Assembly (NCBI GenBank): GCA_004292955.1
Contig: RDXX01000023.1
Coordinates: 7,673 to 71,672, forward strand
Source of the DNA: Oscillatoriales cyanobacterium
Lineage (GTDB): Bacteria > Cyanobacteriota > Cyanobacteriia > Cyanobacteriales > Microcoleaceae
Reading direction: 5' to 3'
DNA: 64,000 nt
Made by a program: the position numbers and the translations under genes. Below, in pieces: positions 2,253 to 41,671 of the stretch. Every line of letters begins with the position of its first letter. The stretch's first letter is position 1. Under the pieces are notes generated by a model, which worked only from the letters and a program-made list of their open reading frames with translations, searched no databases and was not told where the DNA came from.

Positions 2253-3399
2253 CTAGTTCGATCGCCCAAACAGGATAAAATCACTGCGATCGATCGCACT
2301 ACCAGCCACTTTATTGACCGTAGCCAACAGTTGACCGTTCTGAGAAATCGCGATCGCACCTGCATTAGGGCTTTGGGTAATAGTGAGTTGAGCAAAAGTT
2401 AAACCGCCCGCTAACACTAGCAAATCTTCACCTTTAGTGAAATCAGCAATGACATCGCTGCCTTCACCTGCGGTTAAAATAAAGCGATCGCGCCCAATGC
2501 CACCACTGAGAATATCGTTACCTAAACCCCCAGTCAAAGTATCATCACCCTTACCGCCGTACAGAGTATCATTGCCCTCATCACCGCAGAGGTTGTCATT
2601 ACCGCCGTTACCAAACAGCAAATCGTTACCCGCACCGCCACAGAGGGAATCTGGAGATCCGTTTAAGTCGTGAAGCGTAGCTATCCCGTAGGGAATCGCG
2701 CGATCGCCGAAAATAGTATCGTCCCCATCGGCGCCGCAAATGCTGTCGCTGCCGCGATCGCCCAACAGCAGATCGTTGCCCGTACCCCCCACCAGAACGT
2801 CATCGCCCTTGCCGCCGTTCAGCGTATCGTTGCCCTCTCCACCGCTGAGAGTATCCGCAGCATCTCCCCCATTCAAGAAGTCATTGCCAGCACCGCCAAA
2901 CAGCAAATCCTGTCCGTTTGAGTCAGGGCTAGACGGGTCAAAACTGCCTCCAAACAAGCAGTCGTTACCCTCAGCCCCCACCAGAGTGTCGTTTCCCTTG
3001 TCACCCCAAATCAAGTCATCGTCTTTGCCACCGATCGCCACATCATCGCCTTTACCACCGAAAATGAGATCGTCGCCGGCACTTCCGTTGAGGTAATCAT
3101 TACCTCTGCCGCCAAATAACAAGTCTTTGTCTGCATTCGGGCCAAGAGGGATATTGCTGGGCTGCCCACCATAAATATTGTCGTTACCGTTTCCGCCCAG
3201 CAGAATGTCGTTCCCGTTGAAACCGTTGATAGCGTCGTTGAGATTGCTACCGATGAGGAAATCGTTGCCCTCAGTGCCGTTGAAAGTGCGATCGACTGAA
3301 TTCGGCCCTGGAATTGAATCGATCGCAGGTAAGGTAATTTCGTCGCAAGTGCGATCGTCGGCATTACCGCCACCAATGCTGTCAGAGTCAACAGGATTT

Positions 3400-3801
3400 G
3401 GAGTCGGAGTCGGAGTTGTCGCCGGAGTTGGACTTTCCGCCGGAGTTGGACTTTCCGCCGGAGTTGTTACCGGAGTCGGAGTTGTTACCGGAGTCGGAGT
3501 TGTTACCGGAGTCGGAGTTGTTACCGGAGTTGGAGTTGTTACCGGAGTTGGACTTTCCGTCGGAGTTGGAGTTGTTACCGGAGTTGGAGTCGGAGTTGTC
3601 GCCGGAGTTGGAGTTGTCGCCGGAGTTGGAGTTGTCGCCGGAGTTGGAGTTGTCGCCGGAGTTGGAGTTGTTACCGGAGTCGGAGTTGTTACCGGAGTCG
3701 GAGTTGTTACCGGAGTCGGAGTTGTTACCGGAGTCGGAGTTGTTACCGGAGTCGGAGTTGTTTGTTACCGGAGTTGGAGTTGTTACCGGAGTTGGAGTTG
3801 G
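3400..3801. repeat. Intragenic 18-bp tandem repeat (GGAGTTGTTACCGGAGT[C/T]) encoding a TPVTTP linker
   Basis: About 20 units seen; 4-bp insertion near 3760. Confidence 0.95.
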
Positions 3802-4472
3802 AGAGTTATTGACAACAATGCTGGCTGTGACGATCGCAGAATCAGCTTTTCCGTCATTAGCTTTGTAGGTAAAAGAATCTGTCCCTGCAAAACCAGCATT
3901 CGGAGTGTAACTGAAGGAACCGTTAGCGTTGAGGGCGATCGCACCTTTAGCCGGATTTGCCACCAAAATCGCAGTCAACGGATCGTTTTCCGGGTCTGTA
4001 TCGTTAATTAAGACTCCCAACCCTGCCACGTTGAGAGGAGTATTAAAAGGAGTTGTATAGTTGTCAGCATTCGCGACAGGCGGGTTATTGTTGACGTTTA
4101 CAGTCACGGTAGCTGGTACAGAACTAACTATGCCGTCGCTGACTGTGTAGGTAAATGTGTCTGTCCCAGTAAAGCCTGCCTTAGGAGTATAGGTGAAAGA
4201 ACCGTCTTTGCTGAGGGCGATCGACCCTTTCGTCGGGTTGGCCGCCAATGCAGCAGTCAGCGTGTCCAAGTCCGCGTCGGAATCGTTGGCTAAAACTCCC
4301 GGCAATATTTCGCTGAGGGCTTTTCCCGCACTGGTGCTATAGGTGTCGGGATTGGCTGTTGGCACACTGTTAGTAACGTTGATATTCACCGTGGCGGGGA
4401 CAGTTGCAGCGCCATCGCTAGCGCTATAAATGAAAGTATCAACTCCGACAAATCCGGGGCTGGGAGTGTAAA

Positions 4473-4812
4473 TGAAGTCACCCTTGGGATTGAGTACGAG
4501 TTTACCTTTAGTCGGTTGTGTGACAACAGCAGCAGTCAACGTGTCGAAAATGTCGGGGTCGAAGTCATTGATCGACTTTGTATGTGTCGGGAATAGCGAT
4601 CGGCAGACTGTTCGTAACATCAATACTCACCGTACTGGGGACAGTCGCAGCCCCATCGCTAACGCTGTAAGTGAAAGTATCAATTCCAACAAAGCCAGGG
4701 TTAGGAGTGTAAGTGAAGTCACCCTTGGGATTGAGTACGAGTTTACCTTTAGTCGGTTGTGTGACAACAGCAGCAGTCAACGTGTCGAAAATGTCGGGGT
4801 CGAAGTCATTGA
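4473..4812. repeat. Two identical 99-bp direct repeats (4473-4571 and 4714-4812), period 241 bp
   Basis: Base-by-base comparison. Confidence 0.9.
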
Positions 4813-7246
4813 GTGTCGGGATTGGCGATCGGCGGACTGTTGGTAATATTAATTACAAATGTCTGGTTTGCCGAAGTATCGATGCCGCCGTTAGCTATAC
4901 CGCCGTTGTCTCTGAGGTTGAGAGTGATATTAGCCTTGCCAGTTCCACTTGTGGCGGGGGTAAAAGTCAGTTGTCCGAAAAAGCCGATCGCCGGTGGTAC
5001 GCTAAACAAACCGGGATTGTCATTTCCCACGACTTGAAAGTTGACGGTTTGTGTTGACTCGTTGACCGGCCCTGGAGAAATGGCTATGGCCCATCCAGGA
5101 AAGGTTTGCAGGCCAGCACTGTGATTGACAGTGCGATCGGGCCCTTTGACAAACGACGGTGCATCGTTGACAGGATTAACAGTAATTGTTGCAGTCTCGC
5201 TGGCCGTACTGAAAGCTGCTAAACCCCCAATACTGCTAGCAGTTGAAATATCAGCCGTCCCCCCATTCGTGAGGGTAGTACCGCTAGAGTTAGTCGTCGT
5301 TCCATCCCACGATTGATAGGTGATATTAGCACTACCGTTGTAGTCATTATTGGGAAGAAAGCGGATACTGGCATTGCCTGCTAGCAGTCTCGCTGCTGCT
5401 GTTGACGGTGTACCGAATGCCGTCCAAGTCGCACCGCTATCAATAGAATATTGCCAACTGCCGTTAGTATTGTCTGTCGCCGTCACAGCAATTCCTTGAG
5501 TGTCGGCGGTGTCGGGATCTGTAACTATTCCTGCAATTAAAACAGAAACTAAGGTGCCAGTGTTGCTGGCAGAAGGTACATCTTCGTTAATTGCTGTTAG
5601 TACCGGCGAACCGCTGTTGTTGAGTACGGGTGCGTTGTTGGCTGCAAACGCTGCGAATCTGGTGGGAAGGGCAAAATTGTTGTCGCTGACAAGAATTAGC
5701 GTTCGTTTCCCAGTTGCTGTTTGAGGAGGCCCAAATGTCATCCCTTCAAAATTGTCAACCAGTGCCGGAGTGCCTGTACTGAGGAAATAAGCAGAAGTGG
5801 CGATCGGAGTTTTCGATACTGGTGTAATGCTAGCAACACCAGAAGCAATCAAACCGGTATTGTTTTGAATGTCAGTCGCACCGTTTAAAGAAATTTGATA
5901 AAGCTTCAAATCCCCTGACGGCGGTGTTGTCGATAAGTCGAGAAAACGTTCGAGAACCAGCAGTGTATTATCATCAACGGCCAGCATTTCTGAAATGCCG
6001 TTGCGCGGATCGGTATTGTAAAGAAATTCTCCGTTTGCGGTGTTTGTACCTAAGTTATATCTGACAATTCGCGATCGCGCGCCAGCCGTTATATCTGAAG
6101 CAGGGCCGTCTTGTTCGAGAGCATTTTCTGTTGCTGTAAATAGAAAACTTTGACTGGGAGTAATCGTCAGACTTTCAAAACCTTGATTGTTGCGGATGCC
6201 GCTGTTAGGATCTGCTGATACGTCGTATTTGGGAGAAGCAATAGGCAGCGCGAAATTTTGAACTCCTGTTGCAATGGCGAAACTATTAATAAAAGGCTGG
6301 GTATTTGTGGAGAAATTGCCTTCAGAAGAGACGAAGACATTGCCGCCGATGAAGCCAATGCCCTCTGTATCCGATGTATCTGCGGCAAAGGGAGGCGGAT
6401 TGCCAATCTGTGTCACCCCTGTAAAATTCACTTGTCCTGGTACTGGTGTCAAGCTACCGGAACTCACAGTAGGTATAGTGAGGGTGTAAAAGCGAGATGG
6501 GCCGGGACTGCCACCAGGAATATTGCGGCCGTCGGAGATAGCGTAGTAAGTGTTGCTTCCCGCGTAGGTAAGGCCAGACAGTCCACCTACCTGAGTTGTT
6601 GGTGTTCCAAAAGTTGTATTTGCCGGAAATCCTGCTTGTCCCAAAAGTTGTAAGCCGAACACAAATTGGTAAGCGGCCATTGTGGCTGGGTCGATCGCCA
6701 TTCCAGCAACAATCCTTCCCGTTGTATAATCTAGTTCCCAGTCTCCGCCTAAAGCTGAATTGCCGATCGGCCCCCTGGAAGCAGCAATTTTTGCCTTTGT
6801 TAGCCGACTGATTTGCTGTACGAAACTAACGCCCGCATCATCCGCCGCCACATCGCACCCGTACAGCAAAATCTCTGCACTCTCTGCCAGCGATCGCGCC
6901 CAACGCTGCAATTTTTCACCATAAAAGTTTAAATTTGTCAAGTTTAGATCGATCGCGCCTAACTGCAAACTCGCGGGGCTGCCGTGGGAAATGATATGAA
7001 TACTGGTGATATTGCGGAGACTCGCTAGCGCTGCGGTGATTTGTGATACTCCATCCCGCGCCCGATCGAGGATAATTACTTTTGTCCCCGGTTTGATACC
7101 CTTGTGAAGAATTTGGATATCGGGTACGGCAGAGTCGAAAAAGGCGATCGAACTCATAACAGAATTGATAAAATTTGGCACAAAACACCTCTGGTTTGAT
7201 GACCGTCGATAACTTAAATATATGCCAAATATACCAAACTCAGATA

Positions 7247-8203
7247 TTAAATGTCATCCGTAAAATTTCGGGAATGTTGCTGCAACCAAGTCACCAAATC
7301 TGAAACACTTTCAAAATCAAACATCGCATCTCCTAAATTATCCAAATTCTCAAGATTCAACTCGCATATCTGCGTCTGAATGTCTGGAGAAATTTCACCA
7401 ATTAGCCTCCTCATATTCCGGACTATTAATTCTGACTTGCCTCGTTCCATGCCTCGTTCCATGCCTCGTTCCATGCCTCGTTCTAGAGCTTGCTGAGCCG
7501 CTAGATCGATCGCCCCTTGTTGATCTTGAATCCAAAACTCTTGTTTTTGCAATTCATCTAAGTCTTTTTGACTCAGATTCGTGTCGTTAGCAATCTGAAA
7601 AGCTCTTTCAATTTCTGGCACCGTAACCATTGTATCGGGAACAGTTTCTAGGTTACTGGTATTTTTGACAAAATAAATCCACTTGTCCGTCAGCGTTGTC
7701 AACTGATCCAATTCCTTTTTGAATTTTGGCAGTTCGATAAACACCAACTCAATCTCGCTATCGGGATAATCGAATAATCTTTGTGTTTCTTTGAAAGCAA
7801 ATCTCGAAATTACTTCCAATTGATTGGGAAACATTTCAAAGTCTGTGATATTCAAAGCAATTACTGGCCTGAGTCTTTGATAGCTATCGCTTAGATTTAA
7901 TTGCATTCCATAAGTTTTAGCAGCATTATATAAAACTCGCTTACGATATTTTGCCACGTTCAAAACTTGGATTGTGACAATCACAGTTTTGCCATCATTA
8001 ATTTTAGCTTTGACATCTAAATAAGTGTCTTTACTTCCAAAAATCTCAGCAGATAAATAAGGAGGGATGATTTCTAAATCTTCGATCGCAGATTCGCCTG
8101 CATAAAGCATAGCGTTCAAAAAACTCATCAAAATTTCTCGGCTTTCGTTAGAACAGAATATCTTCGTGAAGGCCAAATATAGTTTGGGATTGATAAAACC
8201 CAT
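7247..8203 (-). CDS. Rpn-family recombination-promoting nuclease/putative transposase with DUF4351-like C-terminus
   Basis: FINPK...AFTKIF, DVKAKINDGK, RVLYNAAKTYG, FIELPKF, KWIYFVK motifs; MERG repeats before the C-terminal domain. Confidence 0.9.
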   Translation of the reverse strand: MGFINPKLYLAFTKIFCSNESREILMSFLNAMLYAGESAIEDLEIIPPYLSAEIFGSKDTYLDVKAKINDGKTVIVTIQVLNVAKYRKRVLYNAAKTYGMQLNLSDSYQRLRPVIALNITDFEMFPNQLEVISRFAFKETQRLFDYPDSEIELVFIELPKFKKELDQLTTLTDKWIYFVKNTSNLETVPDTMVTVPEIERAFQIANDTNLSQKDLDELQKQEFWIQDQQGAIDLAAQQALERGMERGMERGMERGKSELIVRNMRRLIGEISPDIQTQICELNLENLDNLGDAMFDFESVSDLVTWLQQHSRNFTDDI

Positions 8204-37579: not shown

Positions 37580-37742
37580 ATGCCCTATGCCCTATGCCCT
37601 ATGCCCTATGCCCTATGCCCTATGCCCTATGCCCTATGCCCTATGAGCACCGCACTGTTACTGAAAAAGGCTATAGTCATCAGTCATTTCCAATTCTTTA
37701 ATCTCAAATCTCAAATCTCAAATCTCAAATCTCAAATCTCAA
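37580..37742. repeat. Heptamer arrays (ATGCCCT)n at 37580-37625 and (AATCTCA)n at about 37700-37742
   Basis: Seen directly. Confidence 0.9.
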
Positions 37743-37851
37743 ATGGTATAAGGTGCACAGCGTGCACCTACATAACTACTACTACATACTACATACCTGT
37801 TAGTTGTAAAGTGCTAGTGGCGAACTCTACAAAAATTATCGAAAATAACTC

Positions 37852-38082
37852 TTATTCTTCGCTATCCGAAGGCATTGCAAATCTCGGACACGCATAATAT
37901 CCATCTCTATCTTTGCACCGCCGCCACGTCGTAGACTGATTCAATTGGAACAGCGTTGCGACTGATTCATTCACTGTGGGTGTAACAGTTGCAGGAGTTG
38001 GCATTGCTCTTGAGGCTTGACTTAGCTCCATTACCGTTATAATTGCCAGCATGGCTGATGAAAGCAAAACTGTGCGTTTCAT
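37852..38082 (-). CDS. Small putatively secreted peptide (76 aa, two Cys)
   Basis: Sec-type leader MKRTVLLSSAMLAIITVMELSQASRA; ATG overlaps the stop of the TPR gene. Confidence 0.7.
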   Translation of the reverse strand: MKRTVLLSSAMLAIITVMELSQASRAMPTPATVTPTVNESVATLFQLNQSTTWRRCKDRDGYYACPRFAMPSDSEE

Positions 38083-38804
38083 TTATTTGTTTTTTCCTCT
38101 TTTAATCGTTGACGTGCCATTCCTATCCATATATCCTCATCGAATTCTTGGGAATCCGCATACTTTAGACAAGTTTTCCACTGCGGTAGCGCTTCCTTCG
38201 TCTTTTTCATCCCTTCTAGGACTTGCGCTTTTAAGCAGTAAGTTGCAGGTCTTTCACTATCAAGCTTAATCGCTGCATCCAGATGCTGCAATGCCTCTGA
38301 ATATCTACCCTGTTTCAGCCGAGCCCATCCCAAATTTTTGAGTAAGGAATATTTTACTCGATCGTCCTCAGCTAATTTTAAACCTTGCCACAGCAAGTGA
38401 ACGGCAGCAGCATAGTTTTTCTTGTCTACTATATATAATCGAGCTAAATTGCTGTAAGCAGCAGGGAGACCCAGTTTGGCAGCTTGCAGGTATTTTCCTC
38501 GGGCGCACTCTAAATCTTGCACCTCTTCGCACAGCCATCCCAAATTGTAAAGAGCTGTTCGGCTCTTGGGATCTACGGAGAGGGCTAATTCATAGGCTTT
38601 TTGAGTATCAGCCAATCTATTGGCTTTGTAGTTTTCAAAGCCCTTATTATTAAACAGTGAGGCGAGTTCCGGCAACCCAAATTGCCAGCCGCCAAAGCCT
38701 ACTGCTAGCATCAGTAGGAATGCCGCCCACTTGGAGTGATGATGCTTTTTTGTTGGCTCTTTCATGACATTAAAAATGTTAGCTAACGGTGTCGTTTTTA
38801 GCAT
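38079..38804 (-). CDS. Membrane-anchored tetratricopeptide-repeat protein
   Basis: One TM helix followed by TPRs (ALYNLG, AAYSNLA, LLKNLGWA). Confidence 0.85.
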   Translation of the reverse strand: MLKTTPLANIFNVMKEPTKKHHHSKWAAFLLMLAVGFGGWQFGLPELASLFNNKGFENYKANRLADTQKAYELALSVDPKSRTALYNLGWLCEEVQDLECARGKYLQAAKLGLPAAYSNLARLYIVDKKNYAAAVHLLWQGLKLAEDDRVKYSLLKNLGWARLKQGRYSEALQHLDAAIKLDSERPATYCLKAQVLEGMKKTKEALPQWKTCLKYADSQEFDEDIWIGMARQRLKEEKTNK

Positions 38805-39188
38805 CTTTTAACTTGAGAGTTGGGATATTTTGTTGTCTAGATTTAATTGCCACCCTCATGGCATCATAATCTTAGGAAATGAAGGAAGGCTTGAACTCAT
38901 TTCTCATTTATGGTTTGCAACTCCACAGCCGAATGCTTGCCTCATGCTGCGATTACCTAGATGTATTCGAGCATAGGTTAACCCTTCGTGGGACTCCACA
39001 AGCAATCCGGATATTTTCAGGAAGATTGAAGATTGAAGCGGGAAGAAGGACAGTTGACAGTTGACAGTTGACAGTTGACAGTTGGCAGTTGACAGAAGAG
39101 CCCGAAGAGGTTGACAGAAGCGGTTGAGAGGACTGATGACTGAATGACTGATGATATGGTGTTCGCTCGATTAAGGGCACGCGCGAAC

Positions 39189-39248
39189 AGTTTGTAGTGC
39201 GTCCTGGTGTCCGCTCTGAAGCTGCGGACACCAGGACGCACTACGAAC
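39189..39248. repeat. REP-like palindrome (GTAGTGCGTCCTGGTGTCCGC variant)
   Basis: Inverted repeat seen directly. Confidence 0.8.
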
Positions 39249-39514
39249 CATTTTTATTATGGTTATGGATCGGACATGATAGGCAGCATCTGAGTTTTGT
39301 ATTTATAGTGCTGTCCCCGCTCGCGTACTATACAATACGCGAGCGGGGACGCTCGCACTCAAAAAAAAATGCTTTTTACAAAAATGAGATGCTCCCACAT
39401 AATATAACTGATGACTGTTGACAGTTGACAGCTTGCCCCCTGCCCGAAGAGCACAGTCGTTGGGTTGATAGGTGACAGTTGACTGTTTACCGACTAATGA
39501 CTGATGACTGATGA

Positions 39515-39982
39515 CTAAAATTGCTTCATCGCGCGTTCCATATCCCGCTTGTCTTCGCGTTTCTTCAAATCTTCGCGCTTGTCGTGCAGTTTTTTCCCTT
39601 TTCCCAAACCGATATCAAGTTTTACCCAGCCACCTTTCAAATACATTTTTAACGGCACTAAAGTCAAACCTTTTTCTTCCACTTTGCCGATTAATTTGCG
39701 AATTTCCTGCTTGTGCATCAGCAATTTGCGGGTGCGGCGAGGCTCGTGATTAAAATAGTTGCTAGCACTTCTCCACGGCGAAATATGAACGTTAATCAGC
39801 CATATTTCGCCATTTTTAACCAAAGCATATCCGTCCCGCAAATTCGCTTTTCCTTCCCGAATCGATTTGACTTCGGTTCCCTTTAACTCGATTCCCACTT
39901 GATATGTATCTATAATTTCATACAAATGGCGCGCTTGTCGGTTGTCGCTAAGAATTTTGTATCCTGTACTTTTTTCGCTCAT
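39515..39982 (-). CDS. smpB: SsrA-binding protein
   Basis: DNRQARHLY...GIELKGTEVKSIREGK...RKLLMHKQEI. Confidence 0.98.
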   Translation of the reverse strand: MSEKSTGYKILSDNRQARHLYEIIDTYQVGIELKGTEVKSIREGKANLRDGYALVKNGEIWLINVHISPWRSASNYFNHEPRRTRKLLMHKQEIRKLIGKVEEKGLTLVPLKMYLKGGWVKLDIGLGKGKKLHDKREDLKKREDKRDMERAMKQF

Positions 39983-40120: not shown

Positions 40121-41671
40121 ATGCAGCGCACCAATATTCCAGATTCGGGAATTTCAGATTCTGTTAGTCCCCCTCAGGCGGTTAATTTGGTTTGGCTGGC
40201 TCCTTTTTTGCTGGCGCTTGCTTGGTTTTGGGCCAATATCTCGGCTGTTAAGTGGCTGTTATCGTCGTTTGTTGAGATACCGGCACTGTACAAGATAGCA
40301 ATTGGTTTTCTGATTGTAGCATTAGTAGTGCGATCGCCCCAACCGAGCGATCGCCCGCGCGCATTTTCCCGCAACTTCATTTTGAGGCGCAATCCGCTGC
40401 TGTTGATGTTGGGTGCAGGTGTTTTGGCGATCGCCACAGGGTGCATAATTAATATCCCACAAGTTAGCGTACTGCTATTTATCCTCGGAACTTACGGGCT
40501 GTGCGGCTTCTTTGCGGAACCGAATTTTTGGCAAAAAAACTTGCCAATTGCCGGCTTGCTGGCTTGTATTTTACCCTTCAGCAATCAGTTTAATAGCGGC
40601 CTCGGCTTGCCCGCGCGAGTGATGACTGCTCACGTAGTAGAACAGTTGCTCTCATTCCTGCACGTGGGAGCTATTTCTTCCTACGATATCCTGATTTTGG
40701 AAAACGGCATCGCTCACGTTGATATACCTTGCAGCGGCATTAAAACCCTATTAGTCGGGACGCTATTTTTGCTAGTGGCTACCTGGTTAGAAAGCCGAAA
40801 ATTAAGTTTTCAATGGCTGGCAGTATGCGCTGCTAACTTGTTAATGTTGCTGTCTGCTAACGCTTTGCGGGTTGTCGCGCTAGTGCTGGTTGCCCAAGTT
40901 TGGCAACAGCCAACCTATGCAGAAATCCTCCACGTACCACTGGGAATTGTAGGTTTAGTCTGCGGTTGTTTTGTAAGTTGGTTGATGCTGCAACAAGTTC
41001 CCAAATTTCAGCCAACAAAACAAATTGATTTCAACTCGCAACGAGATTCGGAAATACTGAAAAATCAGCCTCTGGCAAAAGCCGGACTAATTGTGACGGT
41101 GACTGTTTTAGCAGGAATTTCTCAATTGTATCATGTCGAAAGTACAAAAGTAGCGATCGCCCCTTTACAACTACCCCAACAAATTATATCCGAAGCAATC
41201 CCGCTGAATCCCAGCGAACAAAGATTCTTCGGCAATTACCCAGATACAAAAGCCGAAAAAAAGAGATTTGTCTCAGGTAACTTGCACGGTTCCCTCCTCG
41301 CAGTAGCCAGCACATCTTGGCAGACTTATCACGCACCAGAGTTGTGCTTTGTAACCAGTGGCATCTCCGTTAATCGAATAGAACAAAAACAGCTAACTCC
41401 TACCGTAACCGCTCGCTGGCTGTATCTCAAAGACAACCAACTATCCGCTGCATACTGGCTGCAATCTCAAGCGCAAACCACAGATAACTTCTTGTCGCGC
41501 ATCGGCAGCGACATCACCCATCGCAATCAGACTTGGGTGCTAGTTTCCATTCTTTTTGACAGTTTCGTAAATCCTGAAAATTCCGAGGTACAAGAGTTTA
41601 CTGCTAACGTACATAATGCTGTCAAACAAAGCTTAAAAGGAGCAAAAAATGAAAGCAAAGCAGGTATTTGA
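40121..41671 (+). CDS. xrtO: Exosortase O
   Basis: Multi-TM protein with VDIPCSG catalytic Cys, ANALR, EILHVPLG and C-terminal HAPELC; directly upstream of a PEP-CTERM protein. Confidence 0.8.
   Translation: MQRTNIPDSGISDSVSPPQAVNLVWLAPFLLALAWFWANISAVKWLLSSFVEIPALYKIAIGFLIVALVVRSPQPSDRPRAFSRNFILRRNPLLLMLGAGVLAIATGCIINIPQVSVLLFILGTYGLCGFFAEPNFWQKNLPIAGLLACILPFSNQFNSGLGLPARVMTAHVVEQLLSFLHVGAISSYDILILENGIAHVDIPCSGIKTLLVGTLFLLVATWLESRKLSFQWLAVCAANLLMLLSANALRVVALVLVAQVWQQPTYAEILHVPLGIVGLVCGCFVSWLMLQQVPKFQPTKQIDFNSQRDSEILKNQPLAKAGLIVTVTVLAGISQLYHVESTKVAIAPLQLPQQIISEAIPLNPSEQRFFGNYPDTKAEKKRFVSGNLHGSLLAVASTSWQTYHAPELCFVTSGISVNRIEQKQLTPTVTARWLYLKDNQLSAAYWLQSQAQTTDNFLSRIGSDITHRNQTWVLVSILFDSFVNPENSEVQEFTANVHNAVKQSLKGAKNESKAGI

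What the first reader, a model, noticed from the sequence alone, without database searches (positions are those of the whole stretch)
37852..38804. Membrane-anchored TPR protein translationally coupled to a small secreted two-cysteine peptide
Seen: the TPR gene stop overlaps the peptide ATG (38079-38082). The peptide has a Sec-like leader, a Pro/Thr spacer and a compact C-terminal WRRCKDRDGYYACPRF motif able to form a 10-residue disulfide loop. The TPR protein has a single TM helix and no output domain. Established: TPR protein plus overlapping secreted-peptide gene is the layout of Rap-Phr/RRNPP signalling in Firmicutes, although those receptors are cytoplasmic. Inference: a possible cyanobacterial peptide-receptor pair or protease-inhibitor/partner module acting outside the cytoplasm.
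Basis: partly seen in the sequence, partly recalled or inferred. Interest (0 to 1): 0.65.

Follow-up and report, generated by a model that had tools for sequence, protein, structure and literature searches.

The report
Membrane TPR module with cognate secreted peptide
A Microcoleus cyanobacterium couples a membrane-anchored TPR protein (a "headless" copy of the outward-facing sensor of caspase-type and kinase-type receptors) to a small secreted two-cysteine peptide, and related peptides in the genus also sit beside this TPR type, so the pair is a good candidate peptide-receptor system with no function shown yet.

Summary
A 241-aa gene (38079-38804, minus strand) encodes a single-pass membrane anchor plus TPR domain. 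Its TGA overlaps the ATG of a 76-aa gene (37852-38082) encoding a Sec-type signal peptide, a Pro/Thr linker and a two-cysteine loop.

The peptide belongs to NCBIfam NF040661, a family with a name but no known function. It occurs in 77 of 79 genomes of the genus and in none of about 590 other cyanobacterial genomes. The ATGA overlap is kept in 73 of 73 loci, and the peptide gene is under purifying selection (dN/dS 0.54 overall, 0.32 in the loop).

The TPR gene is not a broken gene. It is a conserved stand-alone copy (dN/dS 0.17) of a TM+TPR module. In relatives that module is the C-terminus of CHAT/caspase or Ser/Thr-kinase membrane proteins.

The main new evidence concerns shorter paralogous loop peptides, which share C-x-D-x2-G-x2-Y-x-C-P and occur in 27 genus genomes. 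In 25 of 28 loci read they lie tail-to-tail with soluble members of the same TPR-module family. Peptide subtypes follow the TPR subclades.

This supports a cognate peptide/TPR-module pair. RRNPP membership fails, and the protease-inhibitor idea has no support. Binding, expression and function remain untested.

The parts
38079..38804 (-). Gene for the 241-aa membrane-anchored TPR-module protein. The start at M1 is supported because some orthologs have Ile at position 14.
   Evidence: ORF; TPR Pfam hits; orthologs 75-99% identical in 73 species with dN/dS 0.17; AF2 pLDDT 89.
38730..38804 (-). Short Lys/His-rich cytoplasmic N-terminal tail (residues 1-25), predicted disordered.
   Evidence: pLDDT below 50 for residues 1-18. 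The positive charges before the helix follow the positive-inside rule, read directly from the sequence.
38673..38729 (-). Single transmembrane anchor (about residues 26-44, WAAFLLMLAVGFGGWQFGL), oriented N-in/C-out.
   Evidence: Hydrophobic stretch within AF2 helix 23-60. It is homologous to the single TM helix that separates the cytoplasmic CHAT or kinase domains from the TPR module in relatives.
38082..38672 (-). Extracytoplasmic TPR module (residues 45-241): five helix pairs plus a capping helix, the C-terminal motif DEDIWIGMARQRL, and four invariant cysteines (C92, C100, C190, C212).
   Evidence: AF2 model and Foldseek hits to generic TPR superhelices. All four cysteines are present in 73 of 73 orthologs. 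They are absent as pairs from the soluble paralogs.
38095..38099 (-). GAGGA Shine-Dalgarno-like sequence 12 nt upstream of the peptide ATG, inside the end of the TPR gene.
   Evidence: Read from the sequence. The surrounding AACAAATAAATGAAA is near-invariant in the genus. Function is inferred.
38079..38082 (-). ATGA stop/start overlap that couples the two genes translationally.
   Evidence: conserved in 73 of 73 loci.
37852..38082 (-). Gene for the 76-aa pre-peptide (NCBIfam NF040661, Osc7112_2153 family).
   Evidence: NF040661 at E 2.3e-38, 130 bits against a 50-bit cutoff. Intact frame in 77 of 79 genus genomes. dN/dS 0.54.
38014..38082 (-). Sec-type signal peptide (residues 1-23, MKRTVLLSSAMLAIITVMELSQA); cleavage predicted after SQA.
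   Evidence: Sequence features. This is the most conserved part of the peptide, with dN/dS 0.30. No SignalP run was possible; the cleavage site is inferred.
37918..38013 (-). Pro/Thr-rich linker plus basic WRR stretch (residues 24-55), evolving almost neutrally.
   Evidence: dN/dS 0.80 for residues 25-52; alignment.
37885..37917 (-). Conserved cysteine loop C-K-D-R-D-G-Y-Y-A-C-P (residues 56-66). The family-wide invariant residues are C, D, G, Y, C, P.
   Evidence: Alignments of the main family and the paralogs. dN/dS 0.32 for residues 53-68.
37855..37884 (-). C-terminal tail RFAMPSDSEE (residues 67-76), acidic at its end and specific to the TM-TPR-linked peptides. The paralogs stop right after the CP.

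Best explanation
This is a real two-gene operon encoding a cognate pair that acts outside the cytoplasmic membrane, in the periplasm or possibly the thylakoid lumen.

Gene 1 encodes a single-pass, N-in/C-out membrane protein. Its TPR module is a stand-alone ('headless') copy of the outward-facing C-terminal sensor module of cyanobacterial EACC2-CHAT (caspase-like) and Ser/Thr-kinase membrane proteins. Gene 2 is translated by coupling through the ATGA overlap. Its product is exported by Sec, its signal peptide is removed, and it is oxidised to a roughly 53-aa peptide whose conserved element is the disulfide-closed loop C-x-D-x2-G-x2-Y-x-C-P.

The most likely mechanism is that the TPR superhelix binds this loop peptide as its specific ligand or partner at the outer face of the membrane. 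Because the TPR protein has no cytoplasmic output domain, any downstream effect must go through other proteins, or the protein acts as a tethered binding or decoy protein.

Shown: gene reality, coupling, conservation, the origin of the module, and repeated peptide/TPR-module pairing. Inferred: topology, disulfides, binding and any signalling role.
For: (1) Coupling and conservation. The ATGA overlap and the roughly 242-aa TPR ORF are present in 73 of 73 loci. The peptide is present in 77 of 79 genus genomes, and both genes are missing together in the other two. Synteny xrtO-smpB-TPR-peptide-ictB is fixed.

(2) Both genes are coding. dN/dS is 0.17 for the TPR gene. For the peptide it is 0.30 in the signal, 0.32 in the loop and 0.80 in the linker.

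(3) Origin and topology. The closest relatives (48-57% identity) are C-termini of CHAT-TM-TPR proteins of about 600 aa and kinase-TM-TPR proteins of about 510 aa. The stand-alone clade (support 100/99) nests inside the CHAT-fused clade (97/92), with the kinase fusions as the next outgroup (99/94). Cytoplasmic catalytic domains followed by one TM helix place the TPR module outside. The cysteine pairs C92/C100 and C190/C212 are invariant in the 73 anchored proteins and absent as pairs from soluble family members.

(4) Independent second association. 27 of 79 genus genomes carry 59-63-aa paralogous loop peptides. In 25 of 28 such loci the peptide gene is convergent with a soluble EAD4- or HTH-fused member of the same TPR-module family, with 3' ends 4-235 bp apart. 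The same layout occurs on a metagenome contig.

(5) Peptide subtypes track TPR subclades.

(6) Across cyanobacteria this TPR-module family is habitually coupled to a downstream partner gene. In 17 of 27 out-of-genus loci, and in the paralog in this genome, a partner starts within -28 to +25 nt of the TPR stop, often as ATGA. The partner's signal peptide is present where the TPR is membrane-anchored and absent in the one HTH-TPR locus read.
Against: There is no direct evidence of expression, secretion, disulfide formation or binding.

The pairwise co-evolution signal is not specific. The partial Mantel r for peptide loop versus TPR is 0.40, but TPR versus the unrelated neighbour ictB gives 0.43.

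In the paralogous pairs the TPR protein is soluble and presumably cytoplasmic, while the peptide still carries a signal-like N-terminus. The compartments therefore do not obviously match there.

The repeated adjacency could partly reflect duplication of a two-gene cassette rather than selection for linkage, although gene orientation and N-terminal domains differ between the arrangements.

The seven closest out-of-genus relatives, and the closest relative in sister-genus genome G190, have no coupled downstream gene.
Confidence: 0.55

Rival explanations
1. The peptide is the active product, for example a self/non-self or antimicrobial factor, or a signal acting on another receptor. On this reading the co-translated TPR protein is only its membrane-tethered chaperone, maturation, retention or immunity factor, not a receptor.
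For: The TPR protein has no output domain. The peptide differs in nearly every species, with 72 distinct sequences in 73 species. Membrane- or lipid-anchored periplasmic TPR proteins such as PilW/PilF, Tgl and NlpI commonly act as adaptors or assembly factors; the weak NCBIfam and Foldseek similarities to these are generic.
Against: There is no sign of positive selection in the loop (dN/dS 0.32). No export, modification or immunity genes lie in the conserved neighbourhood. The same peptide type is paired with soluble EAD4/HTH-TPR proteins next to NB-ARC NTPases, which looks like sensing rather than maturation.
Confidence: 0.2
2. RRNPP-like quorum sensing: the exported peptide is processed, re-imported and sensed by a cytoplasmic TPR receptor.
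For: The gene layout resembles rap-phr (my own knowledge). The paralogous pairs combine a soluble HTH_VMAP-M9/HTH- or EAD4-TPR protein with an adjacent gene for a signal-bearing small peptide.
Against: In the window's pair the TPR domain is anchored and predicted to face outward, with conserved cysteine pairs and no HTH or phosphatase domain. No RRNPP family model matches; the only trace is AimR at E 0.01, far below its cutoff, on the relative P0064. A disulfide loop is unlike the linear RRNPP peptides. No opp link was examined.
Confidence: 0.07
3. The two genes are co-transcribed but functionally unrelated. The TPR protein would be a general periplasmic scaffold, and the small gene a young, genus-restricted gene that merely uses the upstream ribosomes.
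For: The peptide family is confined to one genus and shows no detectable homology to the larger partner proteins found downstream of TPR-module genes elsewhere (hhalign probability about 1%).
Against: Paralogous peptides are paired with other members of the same TPR-module family in a different orientation in 25 of 28 loci, and peptide subtypes match TPR subclades. The two genes are present or absent together.
Confidence: 0.1
4. The peptide is a substrate of the neighbouring exosortase O (XrtO), or the small ORF is spurious.
For: XrtO (TIGR04489, E 8e-181) lies 2 kb away in conserved synteny.
Against: The peptide has no C-terminal PEP motif, TM helix or basic tail; it ends in an acidic SDSEE. 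XrtO occurs in 15 of 72 genera of the order, whereas the peptide occurs in one. A spurious ORF is excluded by the intact frames in 77 genomes and by purifying selection.
Confidence: 0.02

Closest known systems
NCBIfam NF040661, 'Osc7112_2153 family protein'
   Same: The 76-aa product matches the model full-length, at 130 bits against a 50-bit cutoff. Database relatives carry this name.
   Different: The family has a name only. The literature search found no paper or function. Its link to a TPR module and the shorter paralogs are not captured by the model; the paralogs score only 25-31 bits.
EACC2-caspase (CHAT) systems with an ECF sigma factor and DUF1822 (Kaur, Iyer, Burroughs, Aravind 2021, PMC8195603)
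   Same: The TPR module is 57% identical to, and phylogenetically nested among, the C-terminal TM+TPR parts of such CHAT proteins. A full system lies elsewhere in this genome: a sigma-like gene, DUF1822, a CHAT-TM-TPR protein of 640 aa and an ATGA-coupled secreted partner. The paper describes variable, sometimes extracellular, C-terminal sensor regions.
   Different: The window's gene lacks the EACC2 and CHAT domains and has no sigma or DUF1822 neighbours. It is only the sensor module. In the passages of the two papers I searched, I found no mention of a small secreted peptide partner.
Rap-Phr / RRNPP peptide-receptor systems of Firmicutes
   Same: A TPR-repeat protein gene is followed by an overlapping gene for a small Sec-exported pro-peptide. 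Peptide and receptor diversify together across subfamilies.
   Different: The receptor here is membrane-anchored and predicted to face outward. It has no HTH or phosphatase output and no sequence relationship to RRNPP receptors. The peptide is a disulfide loop rather than a short linear peptide, and the organism is a cyanobacterium.
Periplasmic TPR adaptors and pilotins (PilW/PilF, Tgl, NlpI, MamA-like TPR proteins)
   Same: Similar size and a similar all-TPR superhelix on or near a membrane. Foldseek gives TM-scores of 0.55-0.69 (normalised to the query), and NCBIfam hits are weak.
   Different: All these hits fall far below the family cutoffs and are generic TPR similarity. The anchor here is a TM helix, not a lipid. 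Those proteins have no known coupled peptide gene (my own knowledge).

Membership tests
NCBIfam NF040661 (Osc7112_2153 family) | Full-length HMM match above the curated 50-bit cutoff | tested here: met
   130.4 bits, E 2.3e-38, model positions 1-75 of 75.
TPR repeat proteins (Pfam TPR_1, TPR_2 and others) | Repeat HMM matches and a helix-pair superhelix | tested here: met
   TPR_1 at 51 bits against a 27.8-bit cutoff. AF2 model with 10 helices plus a cap, pLDDT 89. Foldseek hits to consensus TPR, OGT/SPY and MamA.
RRNPP (Rap/Rgg/NprR/PlcR/PrgX/AimR) | Cytoplasmic receptor | tested here: not met
   There is a single TM helix with a K/H-rich N-tail. The module is homologous to the outward-facing C-terminus of kinase and CHAT single-pass proteins. 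Paired cysteines are found only in anchored forms. Topology is inferred, not measured.
RRNPP | Output domain on the receptor (HTH or phosphatase) | tested here: not met
   No domain other than TPR in Pfam or NCBIfam.
RRNPP | Adjacent gene for a small exported pro-peptide | tested here: met
   An ATGA-overlapped 76-aa gene with a signal-peptide layout.
RRNPP | Sequence or profile homology to known RRNPP receptors | tested here: not met
   No RRNPP model appears among the NCBIfam or Pfam hits of the window protein.
RRNPP | Processed peptide re-imported by an oligopeptide permease and bound inside the cell | not testable with these tools
   Requires experiments.
EACC2-caspase/CHAT systems (PMC8195603) | N-terminal EACC2 and CHAT/caspase domains in the same protein | tested here: not met
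   Absent from the 241-aa protein, and no remnants upstream. Present in relatives.
EACC2-caspase/CHAT systems (PMC8195603) | Neighbouring ECF sigma and DUF1822 genes | tested here: not met
   The window's neighbours are smpB, xrtO and ictB. DUF1822 is present at the paralog locus L126.
EACC2-caspase/CHAT systems (PMC8195603) | Homology of the module to the variable C-terminal sensor region of such proteins | tested here: met
   57% identity over 224 aa to the CHAT-TM-TPR protein of genome G190. Nested in the CHAT clade.
Exosortase (PEP-CTERM type) substrates | C-terminal sorting signal: PEP-like motif, TM helix and basic tail | tested here: not met
   The peptide ends ...CPRFAMPSDSEE with no C-terminal hydrophobic segment. 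The XrtO distribution does not match that of the peptide.
DxDxDG-type calcium-binding loops (EF-hand, Excalibur) | Profile match to the family | tested here: not met
   No Pfam hit for five peptides, even at E up to 10. The resemblance of D-x-[DN]-G-[GN]-x-Y is only a recollection and a lead.

The most novel reading that the evidence does not exclude
Microcoleus makes a family of Sec-exported, disulfide-closed loop peptides (C-x-D-x2-G-x2-Y-x-C-P). These would be the self-encoded ligands of one dedicated TPR-module family. That same module serves as the sensor part of caspase-like (EACC2-CHAT), Ser/Thr-kinase, EAD4-adaptor and HTH proteins linked to NB-ARC NTPases. In other words, a multicellular cyanobacterium would use endogenous peptide signals to gate cell-death or immunity-type receptors. 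The window's pair would be the core, universally retained member, acting in the periplasm, which I recall may be continuous along cyanobacterial filaments.
Probability: 0.25. Interest if true: 0.85.

Novelty: new variant of a known kind. Interest (0 to 1): 0.62.

Why it matters
Few peptide signals are known in cyanobacteria; from memory, PatS and HetN are the main examples. The bacterial caspase/STAND "conflict systems" predicted by comparative genomics have almost no known ligands.

This locus offers a concrete, testable candidate. It pairs a 53-aa mature peptide with a roughly 200-aa ectodomain that can be expressed. Natural specificity controls exist, because several paralogous peptide/TPR pairs occur in the same genus.

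The locus also shows how a receptor's sensor module can be released as a stand-alone gene and kept for the whole history of a genus. It gives a first functional context to NCBIfam family NF040661, which so far has only a name.

Tried and rejected
- Homology between the peptide and the N-terminal Cys-loop domain of the 313-399-aa partner proteins found downstream of TPR-module genes in other cyanobacteria: hhalign probability about 1%, with only a 5-residue match around the first Cys. Not supported.
- Distant peptide relatives: an exhaustive profile search of 1.84 billion representatives found only Microcoleus-type sequences. A broader profile over 401 cyanobacterial genomes found none outside the genus.
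- Residue-level co-evolution by partial Mantel tests: the loop-versus-TPR value of 0.40 exceeds loop versus ictB, xrtO or smpB (0.14-0.24), but TPR versus ictB is 0.43, so I make no claim from it.
- XrtO link: rejected.
- Remnants of a CHAT domain or of a long partner gene around the operon: none.
- Rfam and promoter/terminator scans of the flanks: nothing meaningful. One sub-threshold miRNA-model hit falls on a palindromic repeat.
- Calcium-loop (Excalibur/EF-hand) or protease-inhibitor families for the peptide: no Pfam hit.
- Foldseek on the TPR model: only generic TPR folds.
- Foldseek on a partner-protein model (pLDDT 85; two beta domains plus TPR): the top hit is the MtxA C-terminal domain and the rest are generic. 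Not pursued.
- Literature search for XrtO, exosortase O or Osc7112_2153: nothing relevant.
Full report
**What is there**

On the minus strand, a 241-aa ORF (38079-38804) ends in a TGA that overlaps the ATG of a 76-aa ORF (37852-38082). The sequence reads AAATAAATGAAACGC.

The larger protein gives only TPR hits in Pfam and NCBIfam. An AlphaFold2 model built on 53 homologs is confident (pLDDT 89). Its first 18 residues are disordered. One long helix spans residues 23-60 and contains the hydrophobic stretch at 26-44. Ten TPR helices and a capping helix follow. Foldseek returns only generic TPR superhelices.

The small protein has a classical signal-peptide layout: MKR, a hydrophobic core, then SQA|S. 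After that come a Pro/Thr-rich linker, a basic WRR stretch, the loop C-KDRDGYYA-C-P and an acidic tail. It matches NCBIfam NF040661 ("Osc7112_2153 family") at 130 bits against a 50-bit cutoff. That family has a name but no literature.

**Is it real and conserved?**

The NF040661 model finds an intact frame in 77 of 79 genomes of the genus (Microcoleus/Tychonema by record titles). It finds none in 193 other genomes of the order. An exhaustive profile search of 1.84 billion protein representatives found only sequences of this type.

In all 73 species loci I could read, a roughly 242-aa TPR ORF precedes the peptide with the same ATGA overlap. The gene order xrtO-smpB-TPR-peptide-ictB is fixed. 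The two genus genomes that lack the peptide also lack the stand-alone TPR gene.

Pooled pairwise dN/dS values are:

| Region | dN/dS |
|---|---|
| TPR gene | 0.17 |
| Peptide, overall | 0.54 |
| Peptide signal peptide | 0.30 |
| Peptide WRRC...CPRF core | 0.32 |
| Peptide linker | 0.80 |
| Peptide tail | 0.69 |

Both frames are coding. The signal and the loop are the constrained parts of the peptide, and the peptide evolves two to three times faster than its neighbours.

**Where the TPR gene comes from**

The module (TM helix plus TPR domain, ending in a PDEDxWIxxARQRL-type motif) defines a cyanobacterial family found in 64 of 401 sampled genomes, or 41 of 169 genera.

Its closest relatives outside the genus (48-57% identity) are the C-termini of long single-pass proteins. 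These are CHAT (caspase-like)-TM-TPR proteins of about 600 aa and Ser/Thr-kinase-TM-TPR proteins of about 510 aa. In the sister-genus genome G190 the best match sits behind DUF1822 and a small sigma-like gene, and is not near smpB.

This genome also has a more distant paralog (39% identity). It lies in a full system made of a sigma-like gene, DUF1822, a CHAT-TM-TPR protein of 640 aa and an ATGA-overlapped 398-aa secreted protein. That matches the EACC2-caspase/ECF/DUF1822 systems described by Kaur et al. 2021 (PMC8195603), which have variable, sometimes extracellular, C-terminal sensor regions.

In a maximum-likelihood tree the stand-alone clade (support 100/99) is nested in the CHAT-fused clade (97/92), with the kinase fusions as the next outgroup (99/94). 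No CHAT remnant lies upstream in the window.

So the gene is a released, "headless" copy of a receptor's sensor module that has been kept intact throughout the genus. It is not a recent break.

**Topology**

Three lines of evidence put the TPR domain outside the cytoplasm:
- The N-terminal tail before the helix is rich in Lys and His.
- The homologous helix in relatives follows cytoplasmic kinase or CHAT domains, and it is the only TM helix in those proteins.
- The protein's only four cysteines form two pairs that flank helix-turn-helix junctions (C92/C100 and C190/C212).

These cysteines are invariant in 73 of 73 orthologs. C190 and C212 are both present in all 97 TM-adjacent family members classified. 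Most soluble members (HTH- or EAD4-fused) have Gly at position 190, and the soluble paralogs have no Cys at 92, 100 or 190.

This is an inference, not a measurement. "Outside" could mean either the periplasm or the thylakoid lumen.

**The partner theme in the wider family**

In 17 of 27 out-of-genus loci read, and in the paralog in this genome, the TPR-module gene is followed within -28 to +25 nt (often as ATGA) by a gene for a 131-399-aa protein. That protein has a beta domain with two conserved cysteines (...C...C-P), an IPYIISPRxT...WNxVxGAxxY beta domain and a C-terminal TPR region.

Where the TPR protein is membrane-anchored, the partner has a signal peptide or lipoprotein signal. In the one HTH-TPR case read, which has no TM helix, the partner lacks a signal. 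The module is therefore habitually co-translated with a partner from the same compartment.

Profile-profile comparison does not show the Microcoleus peptide to be homologous to that partner (probability about 1%). It occupies the partner's position.

**The key new evidence**

Weak extra hits of the peptide model turned out to be real, shorter paralogs of 59-63 aa. Each has a signal-like N-terminus, a linker and the loop, and stops right after C-P. An example is ...RICIDRDGNEYPCP*. A joint alignment leaves C, D, G, Y, C and P invariant.

The paralogs occur in 27 of 79 genus genomes and not outside the genus in 401 genomes. One further divergent copy is on a metagenome contig.

In 25 of 28 paralog loci the peptide gene is convergent with a member of the same TPR-module family, with 3' ends 4-235 bp apart. 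These TPR proteins are soluble and carry an N-terminal EAD4, an HTH_VMAP-M9-type domain or another HTH-like domain. At least four of the loci, and the metagenome contig, also have an adjacent NB-ARC-type (P-loop) NTPase gene. One of the three exceptions is cut off by a contig end.

With two or three module genes in a 7-Mb genome, a chance placement within 250 bp has odds of about 2e-4 per event. The TPR subclades also correspond to peptide subtypes:
- NKYHCP-type peptides go with the L167/L168 clade.
- DKYGN(E/Q)Y(S/P)CP-type peptides go with the L169/L172 clade.
- GNEYPCP-type peptides go with the L186 and L188 clades.

The loop peptide and the TPR module thus travel and diversify as a unit. 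This holds in two gene orientations and with at least five different N-terminal contexts on the TPR protein.

**Interpretation**

The best-supported reading is a cognate pair in which the TPR module binds the loop peptide. For the window's pair both partners are outside the membrane. Because the TPR protein has no output domain, it would act as a tethered binding protein, co-receptor or decoy.

I put 0.55 on a direct, specific interaction. The existence of a real, co-expressed and functionally linked pair is much more certain.

Weaknesses:
- There is no complex model.
- The distance-matrix co-evolution signal is non-specific.
- Compartments are mismatched in the soluble paralog pairs. Those pairs look more like the RRNPP layout than the window's pair does.

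Rivals are a chaperone or immunity role for the TPR protein (0.2), unrelated co-transcription (0.1), true RRNPP-like re-import (0.07), and an XrtO substrate or spurious ORF (0.02). XrtO is found in 15 of 72 genera, and the peptide has no sorting signal.

**Comparison with known systems**

The pair is a member of NF040661 and of the TPR superfamily. Its module is homologous to the sensor region of EACC2-CHAT proteins, but it lacks their defining domains and neighbours.

It resembles Rap-Phr in gene layout only. It fails the RRNPP criteria of a cytoplasmic receptor, an output domain and sequence homology.

The D-x-[DN]-G-[GN]-x-Y loop recalls DxDxDG calcium-binding loops, but this is from memory. 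No profile supports it.

**Verdict**

This is a real and unusually well-conserved genus-specific module. It is a new variant of the peptide-plus-TPR-receptor theme, set in the context of cyanobacterial caspase/kinase/STAND systems. Its function is unproven. Interest: 0.62.

Noticed in passing
Own genome G000:C62:159500-169500 (locus L126; ORFs at 2454-3650, 3647-5569, 5559-6716 and 6742-7503, all minus strand): A full EACC2/CHAT-type system: a 253-aa sigma-like protein, DUF1822, and a CHAT-TM-TPR protein of 640 aa whose stop overlaps (ATGA) the start of a 398-aa secreted partner protein. An IS200-like Y1 transposase gene lies next to it.
   Followed up: partly
Loci L037, L039, L041, L129-L156 (other cyanobacteria): An unannotated family of 131-399-aa proteins: a signal peptide, a beta domain with two conserved Cys, an IPYIISPRxT...WNxVxGAxxY beta domain and C-terminal TPRs, with occasional DUF928 hits. 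It is translationally coupled downstream of TPR-module genes in 17 of 27 loci. Relatives also occur in Anaerolineae/Chloroflexi records.
   Followed up: partly
Loci L167-L173, L183-L202, L203 (genus relatives and one metagenome contig): 59-63-aa loop-peptide genes lie convergent with soluble EAD4- or HTH_VMAP-M9-TPR genes. At least four of these loci, and the metagenome contig, also carry an NB-ARC-type NTPase gene whose N-terminal HTH-like domain resembles that of the TPR protein.
   Followed up: partly
window 40121-41671 (+) and 39515-39982 (-): Exosortase O (XrtO, TIGR04489, E 8e-181) is divergent from smpB. This adjacency is conserved across the genus. XrtO is present in 15 of 72 genera of the order. 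I did not look for a PEP-CTERM-type substrate in the window.
   Followed up: partly
window 39189-39249 and 37600-37790, 39040-39100: A palindromic hairpin gives a sub-threshold Rfam miRNA-model hit (33.5 bits against 100). Tandem heptamer arrays (GGGCATA, GATTTGA, CAACTGT types) flank the operon on both sides.
   Followed up: no
Loci L166 and L184 (genus relatives): A third loop-peptide subtype (MNFK...C[IT]DKDGN[HY]Y[DN]CP) has no TPR-module gene within about 3 kb. It is the only clear exception to the pairing.
   Followed up: no
Nostoc-type loci, for example L039 and L129-L156: The commonest architecture of the TPR-module family (about 420-470 aa) has an unannotated N-terminal region with a conserved WWWF...RFDWLW...RFLSGGPDT motif and two or three TM helices. 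It has no Pfam match.
   Followed up: no
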